In this document: one piece after another, positions 20,293 through 32,499 of the stretch
How positions within the stretch are numbered: the first letter of the stretch is position 1
Layout of the letters: every line of letters starts with the position of its first letter
Virus record (IMG/VR): IMGVR_UViG_3300020160_000328
Span: 33,778-97,777 of that record
Length of the DNA stretch: 64,000 nucleotides
Source: a virus
Reading direction: 5' to 3' (one strand)
Program-made: the position numbers and the translations under genes
The notes under the pieces: model-generated
The model's database searches: none
The model's input: the letters and a program-made list of their open reading frames with translations, nothing else
What the model was told of the DNA's origin: nothing

Positions 20293-20460
20293 ATGTATAG
20301 ATTTCACATATCATATAAAGACCTTGAGAAGAATGATAAATTCTTAAGAGGTGCTAATGTTATTCTTCAAGAAGATAATATTATAGAAGCATTGCGTACA
20401 TTTCAAAATGAGTATCATAACACAGAGATTCAAGGAGTCTTAAGATCAATTGTAGAGTAA
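20293..20460 (+). CDS. Small hypothetical protein (55 aa)
   Basis: MYRFHISYKDLE...; stop overlaps the ATG of the AAA+ gene. Confidence 0.5.
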   Translation: MYRFHISYKDLEKNDKFLRGANVILQEDNIIEALRTFQNEYHNTEIQGVLRSIVE

Positions 20461-21791
20461 TGCACGAAGAAAATAAATACGAAGTAGCAGAAGTAATTGA
20501 AGATAAGGGAACAATAGTACCTGACTTTGATTTAGATAGATTAGCTAAAGACATTGATGATGTCTTTCAAAAGCAATTAGAAAGAAAAATAAGTGAACTT
20601 AGATTAGATTCTAATAAATTGTTACATGAAGTTGATGATAAATTAACTGAACAATTTACAGGATTTAAACAAAGAGTTGACTCTATATTTCCTGATATTA
20701 AAGAAAGATTAGTAGAGGAAATACAAAGAGGTAGAACTATTATTGTTTTACCTAGTACACAAGAAATTAATGTACAACATATGGATCATCCTGTAACTGA
20801 AGGTGCTATTAAATCACTACAGTTACAAAGAAAACTTATGTTAGTAGGTCCAGCAGGAACAGGTAAGACTACAATGGTAGAGAAAATAGCAAAATCATTA
20901 GATATTGCATTTTATAAATACTCTTGTTCTAGAGATTCATCTGTACATGATTTATTAGGTTATAAACAACCAACTTCAGAAACATATTTAGAAACAACAT
21001 TTCTAAATGCTTATGAAAATGGTGGTATATTCCTTGTAGATGAATATGATGCAATGTCTGGAGATATGGCTCTATTCTTTAATGGTGTAGCAGATAATTC
21101 TAAATTCATATCTATTCCTCATAGAGATACTAAACCACAAGCAGAGAAACACAAAGACTTTTATTTAGTTATGTGTGGTAATACTTGGGGTAAAGGTTCT
21201 ACTGATTATTCAGGTAGAGATTTTCAAGATATGGCTCTAATGGATAGATTTAGATTTTGTAGACATCATGTTGGTTATCATCATTTACTTGAAAAAAAGT
21301 TTATGAAACATAATTATGAGAGTATATCAAGATTAAGATCTGCATTAGAAAATGTAGGTTCTTATTTATCTACAAGAAATGTAGAAGATATTGCTATTTT
21401 AATTGAGTGTGATGTACCATTTACTAATATATTGGATATGGTTCTTCAAGATCTTGCAGAAGATGATAAAAGAAGAATTAAAGATTCATTAAGAAGTGAA
21501 AGAGTTACAAAATCAGCACCAGTTCAAAGAGAGGTACAAGAACCACAAAGACCTAATTTTGATCCTACTTTAAATGTTAGAGATGGTCAAGGTAGAATCT
21601 TTAAGTTAACAGATTTAATGAAAGCTTATCCAGTTAATCAACCACATAGAATGGAACAATTAAAGACAAGAGATAAAGTTCTACATGGTAGATACTTAGG
21701 TATGTTAATGCAACAAAGTATACCTACATCTGGTATGGTAAGTAGTGATTGGGAGGACCATAATGGAGTTATTAGATCAAGTAGCTGGTAA
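20460..21791 (+). CDS. AAA+ ATPase, MoxR/CbbQ/CobS-like
   Basis: GPAGTGKT, FLVDEYD, GNTWG, ALMDRF. Confidence 0.85.
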   Translation: MHEENKYEVAEVIEDKGTIVPDFDLDRLAKDIDDVFQKQLERKISELRLDSNKLLHEVDDKLTEQFTGFKQRVDSIFPDIKERLVEEIQRGRTIIVLPSTQEINVQHMDHPVTEGAIKSLQLQRKLMLVGPAGTGKTTMVEKIAKSLDIAFYKYSCSRDSSVHDLLGYKQPTSETYLETTFLNAYENGGIFLVDEYDAMSGDMALFFNGVADNSKFISIPHRDTKPQAEKHKDFYLVMCGNTWGKGSTDYSGRDFQDMALMDRFRFCRHHVGYHHLLEKKFMKHNYESISRLRSALENVGSYLSTRNVEDIAILIECDVPFTNILDMVLQDLAEDDKRRIKDSLRSERVTKSAPVQREVQEPQRPNFDPTLNVRDGQGRIFKLTDLMKAYPVNQPHRMEQLKTRDKVLHGRYLGMLMQQSIPTSGMVSSDWEDHNGVIRSSSW

Positions 21792-22600
21792 TGAAACCAA
21801 CATTCTTATATAAGACCTTAGAATCAGGTTCTAAACTTATAAGATTTGATAATCTAGGTGATATATATTATTTTGATGAAGAAGAGAATAATCCTAGAGG
21901 ATTAGGACATAGAGCTTCAGAAGAATACTTTAGAGATAGAAATATCTTAACATCTAGAAAACAGTTAATGATACAGAAAGCTCAAAAAGAGCTTTCTGTT
22001 GATAAAGAGTTCTTAGATTTAGTTTATAAAGCTAAATCAGCTAAAAGAGATTTTAAGTTAAATAAATTTGGAGGTAATTTATCTATGCCACATTATGCTG
22101 CACAAAATGATAAAGTATTTAAGAAAGGAACACCTGGTGCAAAGAAATCATCTTTGAATATGGCATTCCAAGTAGGTACATTCAGTGGTGGTAATTATGA
22201 TGAATCTTTTACAAGGATACTAAAGACTATATTAATGTGTCAAGCAATGAATATTAGTGTAAGTATTGATGTATTTGATTCAGATACTAGAGCAATAGGT
22301 GGTAGAAATGGTTATGTTATATGTAATGTAGCTAAATCTAATGAAAAGATAAACTTCAGAAATATATTAGCTTCATCTCATTCAGATTTCTTTAGTACTA
22401 CATTATTTAATGGTTATAGTGCTTCAGGATGTCAAGAACATATTGGTAGATTTCTTCCACAATCTTTAATTGTGAGAGATTTAGGTCCAATGTATGATGT
22501 CATTGGAGGTAATATGCTATTAGATGGTATGGAAGATGAACAAAAACAAAAACAAATGGTAAGTAAAATTCTTAAAATAGGTATCAATGGGTCAAGATAA
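21791..22600 (+). CDS. Putative vWA-like partner of the AAA+ ATPase
   Basis: Translationally coupled to the ATPase; alpha/beta pattern; no clear MIDAS motif. Confidence 0.4.
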   Translation: MKPTFLYKTLESGSKLIRFDNLGDIYYFDEEENNPRGLGHRASEEYFRDRNILTSRKQLMIQKAQKELSVDKEFLDLVYKAKSAKRDFKLNKFGGNLSMPHYAAQNDKVFKKGTPGAKKSSLNMAFQVGTFSGGNYDESFTRILKTILMCQAMNISVSIDVFDSDTRAIGGRNGYVICNVAKSNEKINFRNILASSHSDFFSTTLFNGYSASGCQEHIGRFLPQSLIVRDLGPMYDVIGGNMLLDGMEDEQKQKQMVSKILKIGINGSR

Positions 22601-24261: not shown

Positions 24262-25953
24262 ATGACTAAATCTAATTCAAAATTAGCTAGTATTATAGGT
24301 GAAAAAAAGCCTAAACAAGAATTAGTAGAAGCTAAAGCTATCCCAAAACCTGATGCTAAGAATCAACAAGGATTACCTGCTTATACACAAGATATGTGGT
24401 TAAAATTACTTACAATGTTAAATACATTGAAGTTACAACCACAATATTACAGAACAGAACAGAAGACATTAAAGGAATTACAAGATCTTATTAAGCTTTG
24501 TGCTACACAAGATTTGTATTTTACTTGTCAATGTATTGTATATTCTAGATGTCTTGGAGAAGGTATGAGAACTATTTCTCATGCAGCAGCAGTATTTGTA
24601 GCTCCTTACATTTCAGGTCAAGAATACTCTAAAAGATTCTATGGACCTTGGGATAAGAAAAAGAAAAGAGGTGGATTAATCTATAGACCTGATGATATGA
24701 GTGAAATCATATCAGGATTTGTAGCTTTAAATGGTGAGTATAAAACTACCACTATTACCACAAAAGAAGGTACTTCTACTACTGTAGATATTTCAGGTAC
24801 TAAGTTAACTAATGCAATGAAGAAAGGTTTTAAAGCTGCTATTGAATCATATGATACATATAGTTTGCTTAAATACAAATCTTCATTAATTGATGTTATT
24901 AATTTAGTACATCCAAAACCTTCAGAATCTCAAGCTACTGTTAAAGTAGAAGGAGAAGATGTTTACACTATTGATGCTATTATGAGAGGTATGAATGTAC
25001 TAGCTGAAACTTGGGAAGTATCTCAAGGTGAAGCAGGTCAGATAGTAGCTAAAGCTGTAAAAGAAGGTAAACTAGATGAAACTGAAGCTAAAGAAGTATT
25101 AACTCAAGCTAAAGCTGATAATTGGGCTGAATTGTTAGATAATAACAAATTACCTATACTAGCTTGTCTAAGAAACTTAAGAAACATTCTTATTAACAAT
25201 CCTACACAGGCTACTGTTGATAAAGTATGTGCATTAGTTTCTAATCCTAAGTTAATACTTGAAGGAAAGATATTTCCTTATCAATTAGATTTATCTAATG
25301 AGATTATGCTTACTGAGTTTAATGATGGTAAAGCAAGACAAATATCACAAGCATTAGCTAAAGGATATGAACTAGCTATACCTAATCTTAAAGCTTTATT
25401 ACCAGGTGATAATGTAATCTATTTAGACCAATCAGGTTCAATGGGTACACCTATTATATTGAGTGGTAAAGATAGAAAGTATGGTAAATCTCAATGTATT
25501 GATAAAGCTGCCCTAATTGCTGCTACAATAGCTAAAGCAACTAATGCTGATATTATTGTATTTGGTTCAACTGCTAAATATGTATCTTATAATCCTAATT
25601 TAGATGTATTCACATTAGCTAAACAATTATCTTCTGCTCATATGGGTGGAACTAATTTGTCTACAGCTTGGAATGCAGCTCAAAACTCTGGTAAGAAATA
25701 TGATAGAGTATTTATCTTATCAGATAATGAAGTAAATCAAGGTAGTACATATAATGCTTATACATCTTATTTAAGAGCTGTAGGTAGTCCTTATGTATAT
25801 TCTGTAGATCTAGCTGCTTATGGTACAAATTGTATTGCAGGTGATAAAGTTAGATATTACTATGGTTATGGATTTAGTATGTTTGATGATATTGCATCAT
25901 CAGAATTTAATGCTAATTATCATATTGAGAAAGTTAAACAAGTAATTATATAA
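24262..25953 (+). CDS. Ro60/TROVE-vWA RNA-binding protein
   Basis: N.QG.PAY start, GMRTISH, RPDDMSE, MKKG, LKY...L.DVINLVHPKP, LRNLRNIL; vWA MIDAS DQSGSM, GGTNLS, ILSDNE. Confidence 0.9.
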   Translation: MTKSNSKLASIIGEKKPKQELVEAKAIPKPDAKNQQGLPAYTQDMWLKLLTMLNTLKLQPQYYRTEQKTLKELQDLIKLCATQDLYFTCQCIVYSRCLGEGMRTISHAAAVFVAPYISGQEYSKRFYGPWDKKKKRGGLIYRPDDMSEIISGFVALNGEYKTTTITTKEGTSTTVDISGTKLTNAMKKGFKAAIESYDTYSLLKYKSSLIDVINLVHPKPSESQATVKVEGEDVYTIDAIMRGMNVLAETWEVSQGEAGQIVAKAVKEGKLDETEAKEVLTQAKADNWAELLDNNKLPILACLRNLRNILINNPTQATVDKVCALVSNPKLILEGKIFPYQLDLSNEIMLTEFNDGKARQISQALAKGYELAIPNLKALLPGDNVIYLDQSGSMGTPIILSGKDRKYGKSQCIDKAALIAATIAKATNADIIVFGSTAKYVSYNPNLDVFTLAKQLSSAHMGGTNLSTAWNAAQNSGKKYDRVFILSDNEVNQGSTYNAYTSYLRAVGSPYVYSVDLAAYGTNCIAGDKVRYYYGYGFSMFDDIASSEFNANYHIEKVKQVII

Positions 25954-26917: not shown

Positions 26918-26929
26918 TAAAAATATTTA

Positions 26930-26980
26930 AAATATTTAACCTATCTCTTGGTAGGTTAAATATTTTTCTTTAAATTTGCA
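26930..26980 (+). promoter_or_regulatory. Promoter of the RNA island with overlapping inverted repeat
   Basis: TAAATTTGCA at 26971-26980; aaatatttaaccta/taggttaaatattt inverted repeat. Confidence 0.55.
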
Positions 26981-26988
26981 CAGTTGAA

Positions 26989-27192
26989 ATGGAAATAACT
27001 ATTGATAAGACCTATTTACTTAAACCTCTTATAGTTGATGTGAAAGTAGCTAGTGATGGTAAGTTAAGAGATATATTAACTTTAGTAGGACATATGTATC
27101 TATATGGTAGAATAAAAGGTAGATATAGTTATCATAAAATCCTTGATGAAGCAATTGAAGAAGAAACAAAAAGAAGAAAAACAAGGGAGTGA
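26989..27192 (+). CDS. Hypothetical protein; stop codon lies inside the tmRNA 5' end
   Basis: ORF track. Confidence 0.45.
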   Translation: MEITIDKTYLLKPLIVDVKVASDGKLRDILTLVGHMYLYGRIKGRYSYHKILDEAIEEETKRRKTRE

Positions 27193-27522
27193 CATGGAAT
27201 TGACTACCTATTATATAGTATATAATTCAGCCTAGAGAGATAACTAGTAAAACTAAGGTGAAATAAGTAAATGGAAAAGATTCAAAACAAATCGAAGCTA
27301 ACATGACTGTAGTACATAACATCTTAAATGGTGGTGTATCAGTTAAATCAACTCAAAGAGTAGAAATGGCATTAGCAGCATAAAACTTATAGGTTAGTAA
27401 GTTCCTTAATACTTACAAAGCATACAAAAATATCTAACTTAAAGATATAAAAGAAAAGTAAGCTGTAAAAAATTATATATCTTGAAGTATGTAACACGGG
27501 AGTTCGAGTCTCCCCACTTCCA
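27185..27522 (+). ncRNA. ssrA: tmRNA
   Basis: GGGAGTG/CACTTCC-A acceptor with G3:U, 5' GACATGGAATTGAC, T-arm GGGAGTTCGAGTCTCCC, tag frame ending MALAA-stop at 27383. Confidence 0.92.
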
Positions 27523-27534
27523 CAATATAATACA

Positions 27535-27649
27535 ATAGGGTAGTTATAGTAAACTTACTTCGTGAAATTGGTATACACATTTGTCTTAAGAACAAACTTT
27601 TGCTGGTTCAAGTCCAGCAGTAATAAATGTTTACTAACTTTCTCCCTAT
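27535..27649 (+). ncRNA. Y-RNA-like scaffold copy 1; cargo is an acceptor-less tRNA-Leu(TAA) mimic
   Basis: ataggg/ccctat, tagtaaac/gtttacta, TTACTTCG; D-, anticodon and T-arms inside. Confidence 0.75.
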
Positions 27650-27653
27650 AAAT

Positions 27654-27726
27654 GGTCTATAGGTCAAATGGTTAAGATATCCCACTGTCTCTGGGTATGG
27701 AAAGGGTTCGACTCCCTTATAGACTG
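27654..27726 (+). tRNA. tRNA-Asp(GTC)
   Basis: Cloverleaf; loop CTGTCTC. Confidence 0.85.
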
Positions 27727-27728
27727 CA

Positions 27729-27850
27729 AATAAGAATAGTAATAATTAACTTACTTCGTGCTTTTTGGAAAGCATTTCACTTTTAATGAAACAATCAGGT
27801 TCAAATCCTGCGGGAGAGATCCCACTAGTTAATTAAATTTCTTTCTTATT
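27729..27850 (+). ncRNA. Y-RNA-like scaffold copy 2; cargo is an acceptor-less tRNA-Lys(TTT) mimic plus a GAGA hairpin
   Basis: aataagaa/ttcttatt, taattaac/gttaatta, TTACTTCG. Confidence 0.75.
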
Positions 27851-27854
27851 ATTT

Positions 27855-27926
27855 GCCAAATTAACACAATGGTAGTGTACTGCATTTGTAACGCAGAGGT
27901 TATAAGTTCGAATCTTATATTTGGCT
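27855..27926 (+). tRNA. tRNA-Thr(TGT)
   Basis: Cloverleaf GCCAAAT/ATTTGGC. Confidence 0.85.
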
Positions 27927-27956
27927 CAATGTGTTCATTGATTTATTGGTTATAAT

Positions 27957-28030
27957 AGCTCTATAGCTCATTAGGATAGAGCAACAGATTTCTAATCTGT
28001 GGGTGGTAGGTTCGAATCCTACTAGGGCTA
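27957..28030 (+). tRNA. tRNA-Arg(TCT)
   Basis: Cloverleaf; loop TTTCTAA. Confidence 0.9.
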
Positions 28031-28034
28031 CTAC

Positions 28035-28251
28035 AAGAGTGGTAAAAAATAGGTTACTTCGCAAAAATTCTATGAGAGTTCTTCTCATAAAACTTGATAC
28101 TAATGGTATCTTACTAAACACTATGAAAATTAGACAGTTAAATGGGGTAAATTTAAACAAACGAAATTTAACAAACTTTTACTAATTTAGTTATAAATTG
28201 GAACCTTTATTGGAAGGATAAACCAATAACCCTATTTTTAATTTCCCTCTT
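28035..28251 (+). ncRNA. Y-RNA-like scaffold copy 3; cargo is a multi-hairpin insert of about 170 nt
   Basis: aagag/ctctt, aaaatagg/cctatttt, TTACTTCG. Confidence 0.7.
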
Positions 28252-28256
28252 TTTAA

Positions 28257-28342
28257 GGACTGATAGCCTAGAGGTCAGGCAGCAGACTGTTAATCTGCCC
28301 AAAGGAGCAATCCCTACATTGGTTCGAATCCAATTCAGTCTT
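28257..28342 (+). tRNA. tRNA-Asn(GTT) with long variable arm
   Basis: GCAGA-CTGTTAA-TCTGC; variable region of about 19 nt. Confidence 0.8.
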
Positions 28343-28345
28343 CAA

Positions 28346-28412
28346 AGGAATAGTAATATAAGAGTTACTTCGTAAGCTATACAAAAAATAAACTCTTATA
28401 ATTTTCTTTCCT
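28346..28412 (+). ncRNA. Y-RNA-like scaffold copy 4 (minimal)
   Basis: aggaa/ttcct, tataagag/ctcttata, TTACTTCG. Confidence 0.75.
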
Positions 28413-28416
28413 AAAT

Positions 28417-28490
28417 GGTCTTTTAGCTCAATTGGTTAGAGCAGTCCCCTCATAAGGGAAAGGTTCCAGGTTCAAGTCCTGGGAGGACCA
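28417..28490 (+). tRNA. tRNA-Met/Ile2(CAT)
   Basis: Cloverleaf; loop CTCATAA. Confidence 0.85.
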
Positions 28491-28566
28491 CAAATAGTAT
28501 ACTAAAAACAGCACTACAACAGTAATTTATATAGAGTGTGATTGTTTACTGATGTACTATTTATTT

Positions 28567-28637
28567 ACCTTGTTTGCATAATGGAAGTGCCATTGTTTTA
28601 CATGCAATAGGAGGTAGTTCGATTCTACCACAAGGTA
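28567..28637 (+). tRNA. tRNA-Val(TAC)
   Basis: ACCTTGT/ACAAGGT; loop TTTACAT. Confidence 0.8.
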
Positions 28638-28642
28638 CAAAC

Positions 28643-28715
28643 GCATCGTAGCTTATGGAAGCAACAGGTCTCCAAAACCTTGTATGGAGTAGGTTCGATT
28701 CCTACACTTTGTGCA
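28643..28715 (+). tRNA. tRNA-Trp(CCA)-like, irregular acceptor stem
   Basis: Loop CTCCAAA and good T-arm; acceptor only partly paired. Confidence 0.6.
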
Positions 28716-28718
28716 AAA

Positions 28719-28791
28719 GGGTCTCTGGTGTAACTGGTGTGCACGCTAGTCTGAAGAACTAGAGGATAAGGTTCGAGTCCTCGGGCTTCCA
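28719..28791 (+). tRNA. tRNA-Phe(GAA), mismatched acceptor
   Basis: CTAGT-CTGAAGA-ACTAG. Confidence 0.7.
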
Positions 28792-28807
28792 CAAATAAAT
28801 TAAAGTT

Positions 28808-28969
28808 ATGGGTTACAAAGATGAAAATATAAAACACAGAGTAGGTGTATTAACACCTAAGAAAGGTTTTAAATGTCCTAAATGTGGGGATGATAAGATC
28901 TATACAAAAGCAAGCCTTGTTGTATGTCCTTCTTGTAAGAAGATAGTTGAAGGTAAAGATTTAAAATAA
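28808..28969 (+). CDS. Small Zn-ribbon protein (53 aa)
   Basis: MGYKDE...CPKCG...CPSCKK. Confidence 0.6.
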   Translation: MGYKDENIKHRVGVLTPKKGFKCPKCGDDKIYTKASLVVCPSCKKIVEGKDLK

Positions 28970-28976
28970 AATATAT

Positions 28977-29051
28977 TGTGGAGTGGACTGGAAGTGGTGC
29001 CAGCTCAGTCTCATAAGCTGAATTATGTGAGTTCGAGTCTCACCTCCGCAA
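28977..29051 (+). tRNA. tRNA-Met(CAT), initiator-like
   Basis: TGTGGAG/CTCCGCA-A; loop CTCATAA. Confidence 0.75.
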
Positions 29052-29052
29052 C

Positions 29053-29198
29053 AAAGAAGAGTAGTAAAAAGAAAGTTACTTCTATGTGGCAGACGTAGTA
29101 TAGGTTCAAATCCTGTCATACTCCCTAAAGTAATACAAATGGAGTATGTAGTGTAATTGGTTAGCACACGAAAATTACTTTCTTTATTTTCTCTCTTT
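29053..29198 (+). ncRNA. Y-RNA-like scaffold copy 5; cargo is a circularly permuted tRNA domain (YrlA architecture)
   Basis: T-arm, then catactcc-loop-ggagtatg closed acceptor stem, then D-arm, inside gaagag/ctcttt and aaagaaag/ctttcttt. Confidence 0.8.
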
Positions 29199-29202
29199 AA
29201 TT

Positions 29203-29273
29203 CTAGAAACGAAGCTAGGTTTCATGCCACACTTGGACTGTGGAGTACGCAAGTTCGAATCTTGCTTTCTAGA
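29203..29273 (+). tRNA. tRNA-Pro(TGG), reduced D-arm
   Basis: CTAGAAA/TTTCTAG; CCACA-CTTGGAC-TGTGG. Confidence 0.75.
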
Positions 29274-29294
29274 CTAATTTAAAACTAAACTATC

Positions 29295-29486
29295 ATGTCA
29301 AAATCAGAAACATCAAGTAAAGGTATAGGTTTTGGAGGATTATTAACAGTACTATTTATTGGTTTGAAACTTACAAATCATATTGCATGGTCTTGGTGGT
29401 GGGTATTATCTCCACTATGGTTACCTGCTGTAATAGTATTAGGAATAGTCTTAATTGCTTTAATTTTTAAAGCTGTATTAACTTAA
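29295..29486 (+). CDS. Small membrane protein
   Basis: LFIGLKLT..IAWSWWWVLSPLW, a common phage membrane family pattern. Confidence 0.75.
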   Translation: MSKSETSSKGIGFGGLLTVLFIGLKLTNHIAWSWWWVLSPLWLPAVIVLGIVLIALIFKAVLT

Positions 29487-29491
29487 TACAT

Positions 29492-29562
29492 TCCCCTGAA
29501 GCTTTAAGGTGAAGCACATCACTTTTAATGATGGGAAGTTGGGTCAGTACCACCCAGGGGAA
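29492..29562 (+). tRNA. tRNA-Lys(TTT) with non-canonical T-loop
   Basis: CATCA-CTTTTAA-TGATG; T-loop GTCAGTA. Confidence 0.75.
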
Positions 29563-29567
29563 CAATT

Positions 29568-29650
29568 GCAAGAGTGGCTTAATAACGAACTGGTATAGTA
29601 AGTAGTTTTAGAAACTACTAGCTTTGTGGGTTCAACTCCCACCTCTTGTA
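29568..29650 (+). tRNA. tRNA-Leu(TAG), atypical
   Basis: GCAAGAG/CTCTTGT; loop TTTAGAA; short variable arm, enlarged D region. Confidence 0.7.
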
Positions 29651-29657
29651 CAACAAT

Positions 29658-29743
29658 GCCTTCATGGTGGAATGGTAGACACGAGGGACTTAAAATCCCT
29701 TCCTCAGAAATGGGGGGTGCAAGTTCGAGTCTTGCTGGAGGTA
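29658..29743 (+). tRNA. tRNA-Leu(TAA)
   Basis: Class II cloverleaf. Confidence 0.9.
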
Positions 29744-29872
29744 CAAGTATTGCAAAGATACTGATTAAAAACCTGTTCCCTGTCCTCATAACAGCTATAA
29801 GGCAGCTAGGAGTTGAATGTACATTCGGGGTTATAAAAAGTACAAGGGTAAGTTAGGGTTCTTACCAAATTT

Positions 29873-29958
29873 GGAGAGGTGTCAGAGATGGATTATTGTA
29901 TCACTCTTGAAAAGTGATGGGTGTAACAGCCCCCTGGGTTCGAATCCCAGTCTCTCCT
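29873..29958 (+). tRNA. tRNA-Ser(TGA)
   Basis: Class II cloverleaf. Confidence 0.9.
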
Positions 29959-30123
29959 CAACATCCTGTACCCTTGAATCTTTGCTTTATATGTGGATAA
30001 AGCTCCCTGTATAAACATAAAAAGAGTAAACTCGTGAGCAAGTAATATTGTGGCAAACAGGATTAACTTGTGGCAAGCAGGTACTGGACCTGAAATAAAA
30101 GGGTAATAGAATAAGGTCCAAAT

Positions 30124-30206
30124 AGAGAGGTGGCAGAGTGGTTTATTGCACAGTCCTGCTAAGACTGCGGGTGTAAAAGCTCCAAGAGTTCGAATCTCTT
30201 ATTCTG
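30124..30206 (+). tRNA. tRNA-Ser(GCT), 3' acceptor strand damaged
   Basis: CAGTC-CTGCTAA-GACTG and long variable arm; 3' attctg pairs poorly with agagagg. Confidence 0.65.
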
Positions 30207-30215
30207 CACATTTTT

Positions 30216-30287
30216 GCTGCGTTAGTGAAGGGGTTAACACGTATCACTTTCTATGATAAGGCATGAGTTCGAATCTCATACGCAGTA
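30216..30287 (+). tRNA. tRNA-Glu(TTC)
   Basis: Cloverleaf. Confidence 0.85.
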
Positions 30288-30289
30288 CA

Positions 30290-30367
30290 ATAACAGTAGT
30301 AAATGAAAGGTTACTTCGTAAATTTATGGTATTTAACAACACAAACTTTTCAAATCTTCTCTGTTAT
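30290..30367 (+). ncRNA. Y-RNA-like scaffold copy 6 (short cargo)
   Basis: ataacag/ctgttat, tgaaagg/cttttca, TTACTTCG. Confidence 0.75.
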
Positions 30368-30370
30368 CTT

Positions 30371-30443
30371 GGGCTTGGAGCATGACTGGATATGCACTAC
30401 ACTTGCACTGTAGATTATGTGGGTTCGAATCCCATCAGGTCCA
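30371..30443 (+). tRNA. tRNA-Ala(TGC)
   Basis: Cloverleaf with G3:U70. Confidence 0.9.
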
Positions 30444-30463
30444 CAAATTAAAACAATAATATT

Positions 30464-31228
30464 ATGACTAAAAAATTATGCGTACAACTTGGATTAAGAG
30501 AAAAAGTTGAGACAAATTTCAAGAATATGCTTGATGATATGTTCAAGAAATTTAAGAACAATCAAGGAATATTCTTTGGAGAAAGAAAAACTTATCAAGC
30601 CTTAGATGGTTTTGCTGATGAACCTACTAAAAGAGGTTTCACTAATGTACAGTCTACTGTAGGAGAGCAATTAGCTTGGATGGAAGAACACACTAAAGAC
30701 TTTATGGATGTAATCTTTAGTATTGAGAAAACAAATGCTTCAGGAGTAGTTGTAGCTGAACTAGTAGTAGATGGAGAATCTTGGGGAACTTATAGCTCAT
30801 TAGAGTTACTTAGATTAAAAACTACATTAGATAATTCTAAATATAAAGAATTATACAAAGAAATTCCTATTAGACCACAAACAGAGTTATGGGCATTATC
30901 TGATGATGAAGCTTTTACAGGTAAATTAGTGTATGAAACTCCTATTGATGAAGGTTATTCTAAAACTACAGTTAAGGAATCTTATATCTTACCTGATTTA
31001 CAACAAGGAAGACCTCCACAAGTTGCGGAGAAATCTAATCAAGTAAATATTGGTAAATATACCACTCAAAGATTTACTGGTGCTATTTCACTACAAGAAA
31101 GAGCAGTAATGCAAAGAAAATATGACACTTTATATAAAGCTGTTATAGAAGCATTAGAAAATGCAAACAATGTTGATTCATTAGAATCAGATTTAGGTAC
31201 AAAAATTATGAAATATCTTCATAATTAA
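30464..31228 (+). CDS. Uncharacterised helical protein inside the RNA island
   Basis: 254-aa ORF, the only large protein gene among the tRNAs. Confidence 0.75.
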   Translation: MTKKLCVQLGLREKVETNFKNMLDDMFKKFKNNQGIFFGERKTYQALDGFADEPTKRGFTNVQSTVGEQLAWMEEHTKDFMDVIFSIEKTNASGVVVAELVVDGESWGTYSSLELLRLKTTLDNSKYKELYKEIPIRPQTELWALSDDEAFTGKLVYETPIDEGYSKTTVKESYILPDLQQGRPPQVAEKSNQVNIGKYTTQRFTGAISLQERAVMQRKYDTLYKAVIEALENANNVDSLESDLGTKIMKYLHN

Positions 31229-31235
31229 AAAATAA

Positions 31236-31447
31236 AGACTCTAGCTTTAGCATTAGATTTAGCACTTTGATAGCATTCGTTAGAATAAGTGTTGTGAGTC
31301 AAGCTTTAGTGTGAGCAATGTAGAAAGCCAATAGACTATATATTTCCATGTCAGGGGTTCAAATCCCCTACAGTCCTCTAATTAAAAGATAGCACAGGGA
31401 CTGTTAGTTCAGTGGTAGAACAGGAATTTTAAGCTTAAAATCTATTG
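31236..31447 (+). ncRNA. ncRNA: AG-repeat tract plus circularly permuted tRNA-like domain
   Basis: T-arm agggg-ttcaaat-cccct, acagtcc...ggactgt, D-arm gttc-agtggta-gaac, closed by ttcc/ggaa and caataga/tctattg. Confidence 0.75.
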
Positions 31448-31505
31448 AATGTGAGTAAACACAAAAACCTCCACAACGAAGGATATTGACCTGTGGAGGT
31501 TATAT

Positions 31506-31580
31506 ATGGGAGTATGCCAAACTGGAAGAGCAGTTTTAAGCTATCAAAAATGTGTAGTAGTTCGAATCTACTCTCCCATA
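31506..31580 (+). pseudogene. tRNA-like gene (Gln-like body) with degenerate anticodon arm
   Basis: atgggag/ctcccat and T-arm intact; anticodon region ttttaagctatcaaaa is non-canonical. Confidence 0.55.
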
Positions 31581-31689
31581 CGGATGTTTCCTTGTAGCTT
31601 ATAGAAAAGAAACAAGGTGGTGGAGTCAAACTGTAAATCAGTCAGACCTAAAGTAGTTTCCCTCTCTCTACTTTAAAAAAAGGGGTCAA

Positions 31690-31760
31690 TCTCTAATAGT
31701 GTAATGGTAACACACAACACTTTGACTGTTGTATTCTTAGTTCGAGTCTAGGTTAGAGAA
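31690..31760 (+). tRNA. tRNA-Gln(TTG)
   Basis: Cloverleaf. Confidence 0.88.
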
Positions 31761-31942
31761 CAAAAAACTTAATATTGTATCCTGTTTTAGATACGTACAG
31801 TATTATTACATTGATTTACGTATTGCCTGGTGTTGTACAACACATTATTGAAGGGCTATGTGTAGTAAGTGAACTCTATTAAGTTTTTATAGGTATTTAA
31901 TATAATGAAGAATTGAAAGTTATATTACTACCTTTTTTACAT

Positions 31943-32016
31943 GGTGATTGTAGCTGAATTGGTAAAGCTCCTGATTGTGGTTCAGAGGATTGTGGGTTCG
32001 AGTCCCACCTTTCACA
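31943..32016 (+). tRNA. tRNA-His(GTG)
   Basis: G-1 present; loop TTGTGGT; two acceptor mismatches. Confidence 0.75.
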
Positions 32017-32353
32017 CTATTTATAAATCACTTGCTTGAAGATAAACAATAAGTAAGGGGAAATGATACCCATTAACTAAAATGATTATACTTATAAACT
32101 GTACTAGCAGTTGTGTTTATTGTAAAGGTATATTATTACAGGATATGTTAAAAACAGAGTAATTACTGTTATAGAGTTAAATTCTTTATTGAGGAGATAC
32201 CTTTAGACATTATAATATATTCCACTAGAATTTGGACAAGTGATTTTTTATTTTGGTTGTTTCAAAGATATTTATTATCTTTACATCAGGTTTTAGTATC
32301 TTACTATCTAATAATACTAGGAGTATGAAGAAGTAAATCTGAAGCCTATATTT

Positions 32354-32426
32354 GTTTCTATGGGAAAATGGTTAATCCACAGGTCTGCAAAACCTTGAGG
32401 TACTAGTTCGAATCTAGTTAGAAACT
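32354..32426 (+). tRNA. tRNA-Cys(GCA)
   Basis: GTTTCTA/TAGAAAC-T; loop CTGCAAA. Confidence 0.85.
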
Positions 32427-32469
32427 CTAAACTATTTTCTAGACATTGATAGTTTTATATTTAAGTTTT

Positions 32470-32499
32470 AAGTCTGTACAGAAATGTACAGACTTTTTT
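32470..32499 (+). terminator. Intrinsic terminator closing the tRNA cluster
   Basis: aagtctgtaca-gaaa-tgtacagactt plus T run. Confidence 0.85.

What the first reader, a model, noticed from the sequence alone, without database searches (positions are those of the whole stretch)
27535..30367. Modular Ro60/Y-RNA-like system: six covarying scaffolds with swappable cargo domains
Seen: six intergenic elements share P1 / 5'-TRGTWA / P2 / TTACTTC(G) - cargo - P2' / (A)WTTTCY-like / P1'. The stems differ in sequence in every copy but keep pairing. P2: tagtaaac/gtttacta, taattaac/gttaatta, aaaatagg/cctatttt, tataagag/ctcttata, aaagaaag/ctttcttt, tgaaagg/cttttca. P1: ataggg/ccctat, aataagaa/ttcttatt, aagag/ctctt, aggaa/ttcct, gaagag/ctcttt, ataacag/ctgttat. 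Only the loop motifs are sequence-conserved, which fits a protein-binding RNA module. Cargo ranges from about 20 nt to tRNA mimics to about 170 nt. Each copy starts a few nt after a tRNA or tmRNA 3' end, so tRNA processing could release it. Known: bacterial Ro60 (Rsr) binds the terminal helix of Y RNAs, and YrlA RNAs add a tRNA-like effector module. A Ro60 gene lies 1.6 kb upstream. Inference: one phage Ro60 is loaded with a set of RNA adaptors that tether or decoy different host factors. The motif is not the canonical metazoan Ro-binding sequence, and related elements may already be known near Bacteroidota TROVE genes.
Basis: partly seen in the sequence, partly recalled or inferred. Interest (0 to 1): 0.93.

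Follow-up and report, generated by a model that had tools for sequence, protein, structure and literature searches.

The report
Ro60-linked Y-RNA family in phage
Six small structured RNAs scattered through this phage's tRNA gene cluster belong to a widespread, apparently undescribed branch of the Y RNAs, the partner RNAs of the Ro60 protein; they share one covarying stem "handle" but carry very different inserts, including tRNA look-alikes.

Summary
Six + strand elements (27535-30367) share P1 / UAGUAA / P2 / UUACUUC(G) / variable insert / P2' / AWUUUCU / P1'.

A covariance model built from relatives finds over 50 copies in viral contigs. In these, 96% of stem cells are paired, all 13 pairs show compensatory changes, and G·U outnumbers A·C 23 to 1. 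This points to an RNA read from the + strand.

The family tracks Ro60. A Ro60 homologue was found in 15 of 115 pattern-hit viral loci, and all 15 carry the scaffold. In 79 Ro60 loci from bacterial assemblies (mostly Bacteroidota), all 83 model hits lie on the Ro60 strand.

The layout matches Rfam YrlA (P1, loop, P2, YUAY, insert). YrlA aligns over its full length, but below threshold, to relatives whose insert is a permuted tRNA-like domain. The YrlA/Yrl CGAA motif is absent at its usual place, and none of the six window copies hits YrlA.

The "internal loop" is better read as a bulged helix: one of its pairs covaries (A-U 50, G-C 10).

Verdict: a divergent, modular Y-RNA subfamily, that is, a new variant of a known kind. 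Ro60 binding and any tether or decoy role are untested. The scan had already flagged this same stretch from an overlapping window.

The parts
24262..25953 (+). Ro60 (TROVE + vWA) gene, 563 aa
   Evidence: Pfam TROVE 32.1 bits and vWA_Ro60 28.5 bits, both over cut-off. PDB phmmer hits to phiLo Ro60 9KOP/9L5Y (E 8e-7) and Xenopus Ro60 1YVP (E 1e-3). Homologues at 27-73% identity lie next to the same RNA scaffold in other records.
26929..26966 (+). terminator-like hairpin upstream of the RNA array
   Evidence: Consensus scan. The only other + strand site up to 32600 is at 32470-32495.
27185..27525 (+). tmRNA-like gene preceding E1
   Evidence: Rfam tmRNA, full-length match, 29.2 bits (gathering 47), E 4e-10. 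Not called by ARAGORN. RNA-library contig covers 27303-27523.
27535..27649 (+). E1: scaffold (J5 is TAGTTA) with a normal-order tRNA-Leu(UAA)-like insert that lacks a full acceptor stem
   Evidence: R1 29.4 bits. Insert scores 45.1 bits to Rfam tRNA and ARAGORN calls it tRNA-Leu 27553-27626.
27729..27850 (+). E2: scaffold with a tRNA-like insert (anticodon loop CUUUUAA, T arm) plus a GAGA-tetraloop hairpin
   Evidence: R1 36.7 bits. Rfam tRNA 32 bits over model positions 10-63 at 27760-27810.
28035..28251 (+). E3: scaffold (TGGTAA ... TTTCC variant) with a 169-nt multi-hairpin insert
   Evidence: Missed by R1 because of the long insert. A 193-nt contig of an RNA library covers 28053-28246 with 1 mismatch.
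28346..28412 (+). E4: minimal form. P1 28346-50/28408-12, UAGUAA 28351-56, P2 28357-64/28393-28400, UUACUUCG 28365-72, A-rich 20-nt insert, AUUUUCU 28401-07
   Evidence: R1 64.1 bits, E 1e-11. RNA-library contig covers 28344-28419.
29056..29198 (+). E5: scaffold with a permuted tRNA-like insert (T arm, closed 8-bp acceptor-like stem, D arm), the YrlA order
   Evidence: R1 37.4 bits. No RF02553 hit. Relatives of the same class get 31-39 bits.
30290..30367 (+). E6: scaffold with a 28-nt insert
   Evidence: R1 48.2 bits.
27654..32427 (+). tRNA array (about 22 tRNA genes) in which E2-E6 are interleaved
   Evidence: ARAGORN finds 18 and Rfam 22 tRNA matches, two of which are inserts of E1/E2.
31328..31451 (+). 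seventh Y-like RNA without the UAGUAA/UUACUUCG scaffold (permuted T-AS-D domain closed by CAAUAG/CUAUUG)
   Evidence: Rfam YrlA, full-length match, 35.2 bits (gathering 69), E 2.5e-6. Orthologue L020 7864-7978 scores 39.3 bits.
32470..32495 (+). strong terminator-like hairpin after the last tRNA
   Evidence: 11-bp stem followed by a T run.

Best explanation
The six elements are non-coding RNAs of a divergent Y-RNA (YrlA-like) subfamily whose partner is the phage's own Ro60.

Shown: each folds so that its 5' and 3' ends form one long irregular stem. The stem is P1, a bulged pyrimidine, a short conserved helix (AGUAA over UUUCU with a central U.U), a 2-3 nt A-rich bulge, then P2. The invariant UUACUUC(G) follows, and P2 closes a loop that accepts almost any insert.

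Inferred: the conserved stem module is the Ro60 handle and the insert is the effector part. The inserts are minimal (E4, E6), long multi-hairpin (E3), YrlA-type permuted tRNA mimic (E5), and normal-order tRNA mimics that keep an anticodon loop but lack a full acceptor stem (E1, E2).

Inferred: in this phage the RNAs are transcribed with the tmRNA-like gene and the tRNAs as one unit. They would be released by the same cuts that mature the neighbouring tRNAs (RNase P downstream, 3' tRNA processing upstream). This leaves P1 with overhangs of a few nucleotides.

Inferred by analogy with Deinococcus/Salmonella Rsr-Y RNA-PNPase and Thermus phage phiLo Ro60-Yrl: the ribonucleoproteins gate Ro60 or tether it, or its RNAs, to host RNA-handling enzymes during infection.
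For: RNA structure: R1 hits form alignment A4 (54 rows, 50 distinct). 96.4% of cells are paired, 13 of 13 pairs change on both sides, and the covariation score is 0.88 against 0.09-0.16 for slid partners; 0 of 500 shuffles reach it.

Strand: G.U/U.G 23 against A.C/C.A 1.

Bulged helix: J5 position 2 and the last J3 base covary (A-U 50, G-C 10, other 2).

Ro60 linkage in viruses: tblastn finds a Ro60 homologue in 15 of 115 pattern-hit loci. All 15 are scaffold-positive, and none of the roughly 92 scaffold-negative loci has one. In L037, L041, L048 and L074 the copies lie about 45-120 nt from the Ro60 gene. All three complete records (G000, G001, G002) have both.

Ro60 linkage in cells: among 79 Ro60 loci from bacterial assemblies, 83 of 83 R1 hits are on the Ro60 strand and 41 loci hit at E<1e-3. 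A structure-free motif count gives 79 on the Ro60 strand against 3 on the other.

Kinship with YrlA: the Rfam YrlA consensus is P1 / 5-nt loop / P2 / CUAc (YUAY) / tRNA-like domain / P2' / 8-nt loop / P1'. It aligns over its full length to scaffold copies with permuted inserts at 31-39 bits, E 1e-3 to 4e-5, with our UUAC on YUAY. A YrlA-like RNA also lies in the same array.

Expression hint: contigs of a metatranscriptome library cover the tmRNA-like gene, the interior of E3, and E4.

Transcription unit: the only + strand terminator-like sites flank the array.

Precedent: phage Ro60 binds neighbouring Yrl RNAs and host PNPase (PMC12135203). Y RNAs lie within 4 kb of Ro60 on the same strand (PMC4201824).
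Against: No binding data exist. The six window copies get no RF02553 hit at E<=10. The GNCGAAN0-1G / CGAA motif, held to be the Rsr/Ro60 contact, is absent at the 5' stem; the only conserved CG lies after P2. The RNA evidence is contigs only, at low depth, from a related strain, and an RNA library can contain DNA. The three closest Ro60 homologues in MAGs (L129-L131) have no copy within 4 kb. In one record the copies are 27 kb from Ro60. A4 was fitted to the model, so its pair counts lean towards the structure.
Confidence: 0.75

Rival explanations
1. The conserved stem module is the handle for a protein other than Ro60, such as a host RNase, PNPase, a tRNA enzyme or another phage protein. Alternatively the RNAs are substrates or clients of Ro60 quality control rather than stable partners. 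In either case Ro60 is only a neighbour that is co-inherited.
For: The canonical CGAA contact motif is missing. A scaffold-less YrlA-like RNA that could be the true Ro60 partner lies in the same array. In G007 the copies are 27 kb from Ro60.
Against: Ro60 is the only gene that stays adjacent and co-oriented across Ro60 lineages of 27-73% identity and across viral and cellular records. In L037 the Ro60 gene is flanked on both sides by copies at roughly 60-80 nt, with no other gene shared.
Confidence: 0.12
2. They are cis-acting processing or regulatory signals: punctuation hairpins for RNase III or another endonuclease in the tRNA precursor, or autoregulatory leaders of Ro60 mRNA. On this reading they are not free-standing RNAs.
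For: About 20 bp of irregular duplex sits between tRNAs. In many cellular loci the copy ends within about 100 nt of the Ro60 start, on the same strand.
Against: The window copies lie 1.6-4.4 kb downstream of Ro60, behind four ORFs and a terminator-like hairpin. Inserts include complete tRNA-like domains conserved as classes across records. Many copies have no tRNA neighbour. There are several copies per genome with different inserts. The layout and YUAY are shared with YrlA, a trans-acting RNA.
Confidence: 0.08
3. They are DNA-level sites, such as attC-like folded recombination sites or MITE-like repeats, that shuffle tRNA cassettes.
For: The stem sequences vary around conserved unpaired bases and a central part of variable length. 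Related strains differ by cassette-sized replacements in the array.
Against: G.U 23 against A.C 1 in the stems. The elements have a fixed orientation relative to Ro60, 83 to 0 and 79 to 3. The inserts carry strand-specific tRNA arms. RNA-library contigs cover E3 and E4. Single copies sit next to chromosomal Ro60 genes without tRNA arrays.
Confidence: 0.02

Closest known systems
YrlA (Rfam RF02553), the tRNA-like Y RNA bound by bacterial Ro60/Rsr (Chen et al. 2014, PMC4201824)
   Same: Both are encoded next to Ro60 on the same strand. The 5' and 3' ends pair as P1, then an asymmetric loop or bulge, then P2, then YUAY (here UUAC), then an insert. Some inserts (E5 and relatives) are V-T-acceptor-D permuted tRNA mimics. 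The model aligns over its full length to such relatives.
   Different: The scores are far below gathering (31-39 vs 69 bits), and none of the six window copies hits at all. The GNCGAAN0-1G motif at the P1/loop border is replaced by a variable P1 plus Y-R-G-Y-R-A. UUACUUC(G) and UUUCY are invariant here. Most copies have no tRNA-like domain, or have one in normal order with an anticodon loop. There are up to six or more copies per genome.
Yrl1/Yrl2 of Thermus phage phiLo with its Ro60 (PMC12135203; PDB 9KOP, 9L5Y)
   Same: Both are cases of a phage-encoded Ro60 with several small stem-bulge-stem RNAs encoded beside it. phiLo Ro60 is the best PDB sequence match of this protein. It is a precedent for binding host PNPase.
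   Different: The phiLo RNAs were picked by a CGAA motif in the bulge and lie upstream of the gene. Here the conserved motifs differ, the RNAs are embedded in a tRNA array, and their inserts are diverse.
Metazoan Y RNAs (RF00019) and Deinococcus Yrn1
   Same: The terminal stem has a bulged conserved helix as the Ro60 site, and a variable effector loop. Several paralogues share one protein.
   Different: There is no similarity to the GGUCCGA helix and no Rfam hit. The inserts here are tRNA-derived or unrelated.

Membership tests
YrlA (RF02553) | Covariance-model score at or above the gathering score (69 bits) | tested here: not met
   E1-E6 give no hit at E<=10. Related scaffold copies with permuted inserts score 31-39 bits.
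YrlA (RF02553) | GNCGAAN0-1G (CGAA) motif near the 5' end, the proposed Rsr contact | tested here: not met
   The 5' side reads variable P1 + UAGUAA. CG occurs only in UUACUUCG after P2.
YrlA (RF02553) | Terminal stem P1 / internal loop / P2 followed by YUAY | tested here: met
   In the cmscan alignment the YrlA consensus P1, loop, P2 and CUAc fall on our P1, UAGUaa, P2 and UUAC. P1 and P2 covary.
YrlA (RF02553) | tRNA-like domain in the order V, T arm, closed acceptor-like stem, D arm | tested here: inconclusive
   Present in E5 by inspection and folding. Absent in E3, E4 and E6. E1 and E2 have tRNA arms in normal order.
Y RNA in the broad sense (Ro60 partner RNA) | Encoded within a few kb of Ro60 on the same strand, across lineages | tested here: met
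   The window copies start 1.6 kb downstream. All 15 Ro60-bearing viral loci are scaffold-positive. 83 of 83 hits in 79 cellular Ro60 loci are on the Ro60 strand.
Y RNA in the broad sense (Ro60 partner RNA) | Physical binding to Ro60 | not testable with these tools
   Needs EMSA, RIP or a structure. The complex predictor takes proteins only.
Y RNA in the broad sense (Ro60 partner RNA) | Discrete stable transcript | tested here: inconclusive
   Contigs of one metatranscriptome library cover the interior of E3 and E4. Contigs cannot show ends, strand or level.
tRNA (RF00005), for the inserts of E1 and E2 | Seven-bp acceptor stem with free ends for aminoacylation | tested here: not met
   E1 has 5 of 7 acceptor pairs (TTACT/AGTAA) buried inside P2. 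The E2 match covers model positions 10-63 only.

The most novel reading that the evidence does not exclude
The scaffold is a general Ro60 docking handle that phages and Bacteroidota use to display interchangeable RNA baits. The normal-order tRNA mimics would be baits of this kind. They keep a genuine anticodon loop (Leu-UAA in E1, Lys-UUU in E2; Gln, Leu and Met types in relatives) but cannot be charged. Protected by Ro60, they could act as decoys or sensors for host anticodon nucleases or tRNA-modifying enzymes. That would make this a programmable RNA counter-defence array embedded in a tRNA cluster.
Probability: 0.15. Interest if true: 0.88.

Novelty: new variant of a known kind. Interest (0 to 1): 0.62.

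Why it matters
Ro60 and its Y RNAs are conserved from bacteria to humans. Outside a few models, both the RNA partners and the rules of recognition are poorly known.

This family supplies a second, sharply defined candidate recognition module: a bulged helix plus UUACUUC. More than 100 natural variants were detected here, and one 60-70 nt minimal form is well suited to binding and structural work.

The family shows natural insert swapping at a single site. It would give a candidate RNA partner to Ro60 genes of Saprospiraceae and other Bacteroidota, and of several phages that carry tRNA arrays.

It also warns annotators that some "tRNA genes" in phage arrays (E1 is called tRNA-Leu by ARAGORN) are inserts of another RNA.

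Tried and rejected
1. Rfam on the window at gathering and at E<=10: no Y_RNA or YrlA hit on E1-E6. The own-genome YrlA scan gave only weak hits over tRNAs and missed the 31328 copy.

2. Alternative pairing of AGUAA with the perfectly complementary UUACU: rejected. In all 54 aligned copies the A of UUACU stays A, including those where the facing U of AGUAA is C. The A-to-G variants co-vary with the 3' UUUCY instead.

3. A general P3 hairpin UUC(G)/(Y)GAA enclosing the insert: not supported. It forms in 15 of 62 MFE folds, against 27% with shuffled inserts. It may still hold for the class with tRNA-like inserts, but the sample is small.

4. Reading the element on the - strand, where TTACTTCG becomes CGAAGTAA and resembles the CGAA motif: rejected, because of the T arms, the G.U bias and the orientation relative to Ro60.

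5. Phage GenBank collection by blastn: only tRNA-sized matches and no relative.

6. Single-protein scan of genome contigs: nothing. The alignment-based scan worked.

7. Records G003, G006, G008, G009 and G010 have the scaffold but no Ro60. They are fragments only 7-26% complete, so they are uninformative.

8. RNA run X20: stretches of the array without contig cover cannot be read as silence. Small-share runs were not used to name a habitat.

9. Two Wolin-lab reviews could not be read because they are not held. The supplements of Chen 2014 are not held either. I therefore could not check whether Bacteroidota copies were in their tables.


Full report
**What is in the sequence**

The window is the right-hand 64 kb of a 97,777-bp virus record with direct terminal repeats. 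It has 29.7% G+C.

Between 27.2 and 32.4 kb lie a tmRNA-like gene, about 22 tRNA genes and a few small ORFs, all on the + strand.

Six elements lie among them:
- E1 27535-27649
- E2 27729-27850
- E3 28035-28251
- E4 28346-28412
- E5 29056-29198
- E6 30290-30367

Each reads P1 (5-8 bp) / TRGTWA / P2 (7-8 bp) / TTACTTC(G) / insert / P2' / AWTTTCY / P1'. The sequence motif occurs exactly six times in the window and only there. With one mismatch allowed there are 11 matches against 1.6 expected. The stems differ in every copy yet always pair.

**Is it a family, and is it RNA?**

An exact-pattern scan of IMG/VR returned 115 loci. Most were single chance matches. A structural filter then recovered the complete scaffold, with other stem sequences, in about two dozen contigs, often in several copies.

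A covariance model (R1) was built from ten short-insert relatives. It finds five of the six window copies (E3 has too long an insert) and many further copies in the same contigs. It finds none elsewhere in the phage's own genome.

On the 54-hit alignment:
- 96.4% of cells are paired.
- All 13 pairs show changes on both sides.
- The covariation score is 0.88, against 0.09-0.16 when partners are slid.
- No shuffle out of 500 reaches the observed values.

The alignment is model-fitted, which favours pairing. However, the slid-partner control and the independent regex-based detection agree with it.

G.U/U.G pairs outnumber A.C/C.A by 23 to 1. The structure is therefore selected in RNA transcribed in the same direction as the tRNAs, and not in DNA.

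**Anatomy**

Three segments are conserved:
- Y-R-G-Y-R-A, mostly UAGUAA.
- UUACUUC(G), which is UUCCUUCG in a few G+C-rich bacteria.
- (A)A(Y)UUUCY.

The second base of the first segment and the last base of the third covary: A-U 50, G-C 10, other 2. E3 is one of the G-C cases.

The "internal loop" is therefore better described as follows:
- a bulged pyrimidine;
- a 5-step helix (R-Y, G-C, Y.U, R-U, A-U);
- a 2-3 nt A-rich bulge on the 3' strand.

Together with P1 and P2 this forms one irregular stem of about 20 bp.

The tempting alternative is AGUAA pairing with the perfectly complementary UUACU. The variants do not support it. A general third helix UUC/GAA around the insert is not supported against shuffles either.

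Inserts fall into classes that recur across records:
- Minimal, 14-40 nt and often A-rich at the 3' end (E4, E6).
- Normal-order tRNA-like, with D, anticodon and T arms and often an extra GNRA hairpin, but without a full acceptor stem. These are E1 (Leu-UAA type, 45 bits to Rfam tRNA, called tRNA-Leu by ARAGORN) and E2 (Lys-UUU type).
- Permuted V / T / closed acceptor-like stem / D (E5).
- Long, unrelated inserts (E3).

**Link to Ro60**

The ORF at 24262-25953 is a divergent Ro60.

In viral contigs:
- tblastn with this protein against all 115 pattern loci finds a homologue in 15. Every one of these carries the scaffold. None of the roughly 92 scaffold-negative loci has one.
- In L037 three copies lie on each side of the Ro60 gene, within roughly 60-80 nt of it.
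- In L041, L048 and L074 copies lie about 45-120 nt from it.
- In more distant Ro60 lineages (27-39% identity) a single minimal copy stands 0.3-2.2 kb from the gene, in several cases with no tRNA nearby.
- Whole-record searches add two more records with Ro60. They leave only fragments that are 7-26% complete without one.

In cellular assemblies:
- An alignment of these Ro60 proteins retrieved 79 loci from bacterial assemblies. Most are Bacteroidota (Saprospiraceae, Lewinellaceae and others). They include contigs of 0.3-1.6 Mb and one cultured Neolewinella with the scaffold.
- R1 gives 83 hits there, all on the Ro60 strand, in 41 loci at E<1e-3. Most lie just upstream of the gene.
- A structure-free motif count gives 79 on that strand against 3 on the other.
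- The three closest homologues in MAGs (gut bacteria, 45-48% identity) have none within 4 kb.

**Relation to known Y RNAs**

Rfam's YrlA consensus is P1 / 5-nt loop / P2 / CUAc / tRNA-like V-T-AS-D domain / P2' / 8-nt loop / P1'. This is the same plan as the scaffold.

cmscan aligns YrlA over its full length to scaffold copies with permuted inserts in relatives, at 31-39 bits (E 1e-3 to 4e-5). It places our UUAC on the conserved YUAY.

All of these scores are far below the gathering score of 69, and the six window copies are not hit at all.

The motif GNCGAAN0-1G is proposed as the Rsr contact in YrlA (PMC4201824). It was also used, as CGAA, to find and mutate Yrl1/Yrl2 of Thermus phage phiLo (PMC12135203). 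It is absent from its expected place here.

The window also holds a seventh, scaffold-less YrlA-like RNA at 31328-31451 (35.2 bits, E 2.5e-6).

Phage Ro60 genes with neighbouring Y-like RNAs are known. Examples are mycobacteriophages, CcrColossus, Bacillus phage G and phiLo. Jumbo-phage surveys also note TROVE proteins.

I found no description of this scaffold in Rfam 15 or in the papers I could search. The supplements of Chen 2014 and two reviews were not available.

**Expression and processing**

E2-E6 begin 2-5 nt after a tRNA and end 4-7 nt before the next. E1 begins 9 nt after the tmRNA-like gene.

On the + strand the only terminator-like hairpins between 26.8 and 32.6 kb are at 26929-26966 and 32470-32495. 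This fits one long precursor cut by the tRNA-processing enzymes. That step is inferred.

Near-identical DNA occurs in freshwater, sediment and wastewater metagenomes. In one metatranscriptome library, from the same sample as a DNA run that holds a related strain, contigs cover three parts:
- the tmRNA-like gene (27303-27523);
- the interior of E3 (28053-28246, a 193-nt contig with one mismatch);
- E4 (28344-28419).

This is only a hint of stable RNAs. Contigs show neither ends nor strand, and such libraries can contain DNA.

**Conclusion**

- Most likely (0.75): these are Ro60-partner RNAs of a divergent, modular Y-RNA subfamily shared by Bacteroidota-type Ro60 genes and their phages. In this phage clade they have expanded and been inserted into the tRNA array.
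- Rivals: another protein partner or a client role (0.12), cis-acting processing or leader elements (0.08), and DNA-level sites (0.02).
- Novelty: a new variant of a known kind.

Noticed in passing
window 31328-31451 (+): A seventh Y-like RNA without the UAGUAA/UUACUUCG scaffold. It is a permuted T / acceptor-like / D domain closed by CAAUAG/CUAUUG. Rfam YrlA scores 35.2 bits, E 2.5e-6, below gathering. It directly follows a DUF7873 gene (30464-31228), and this arrangement is conserved in L020 (7864-7978, 39.3 bits).
   Followed up: partly
window 27185-27525 (+): A tmRNA-like gene that Rfam matches over its full length but below threshold (29.2 vs 47 bits). ARAGORN does not call it. Relatives have clearer tmRNAs in the same position (L078 60.6 bits, L020 34.5 bits).
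   Followed up: partly
window 27523-27724, 28446-28557, 28973-29046, 30122-30295: A related strain in two DNA runs (42-kb and 16-kb contigs) replaces or deletes cassette-sized pieces of the array. E1 plus tRNA-Asp is swapped for 563 other bases, a tRNA-Met for 439, and tRNA-Ser plus tRNA-Glu for 359. The array therefore evolves by cassette exchange.
   Followed up: no
window 27553-27626: ARAGORN and Rfam call the insert of E1 a tRNA-Leu(UAA) gene (45 bits). Similar inserts in relatives score 45-51 bits. Such calls in phage tRNA arrays may be Y-RNA inserts, not chargeable tRNAs. A regular tRNA-Leu(UAA) is at 29658-29744.
   Followed up: partly
L041 7793-7975: A sub-threshold match to archaeal RNase P RNA (35.6 bits, E 1.3e-6) inside the tRNA/Y-RNA array of a complete 172-kb phage record.
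   Followed up: no
L019 7577-7637: A sub-threshold match to the freshwater-1 RNA motif (50.7 vs 72 bits) inside a related phage tRNA array.
   Followed up: no
L143, L158, L172, L176, L188 (genome contigs): Several 'MAG' contigs labelled Saprospiraceae or Sericytochromatia carry 10-25 tRNA genes packed upstream of Ro60, together with scaffold copies. They look like phage contigs binned into bacterial genomes.
   Followed up: no
window 20460-22600: A MoxR-like AAA+ ATPase gene (AAA_5, 40.8 bits), followed by a 269-aa ORF with no Pfam hit, lies about 1.7 kb upstream of Ro60.
   Followed up: no
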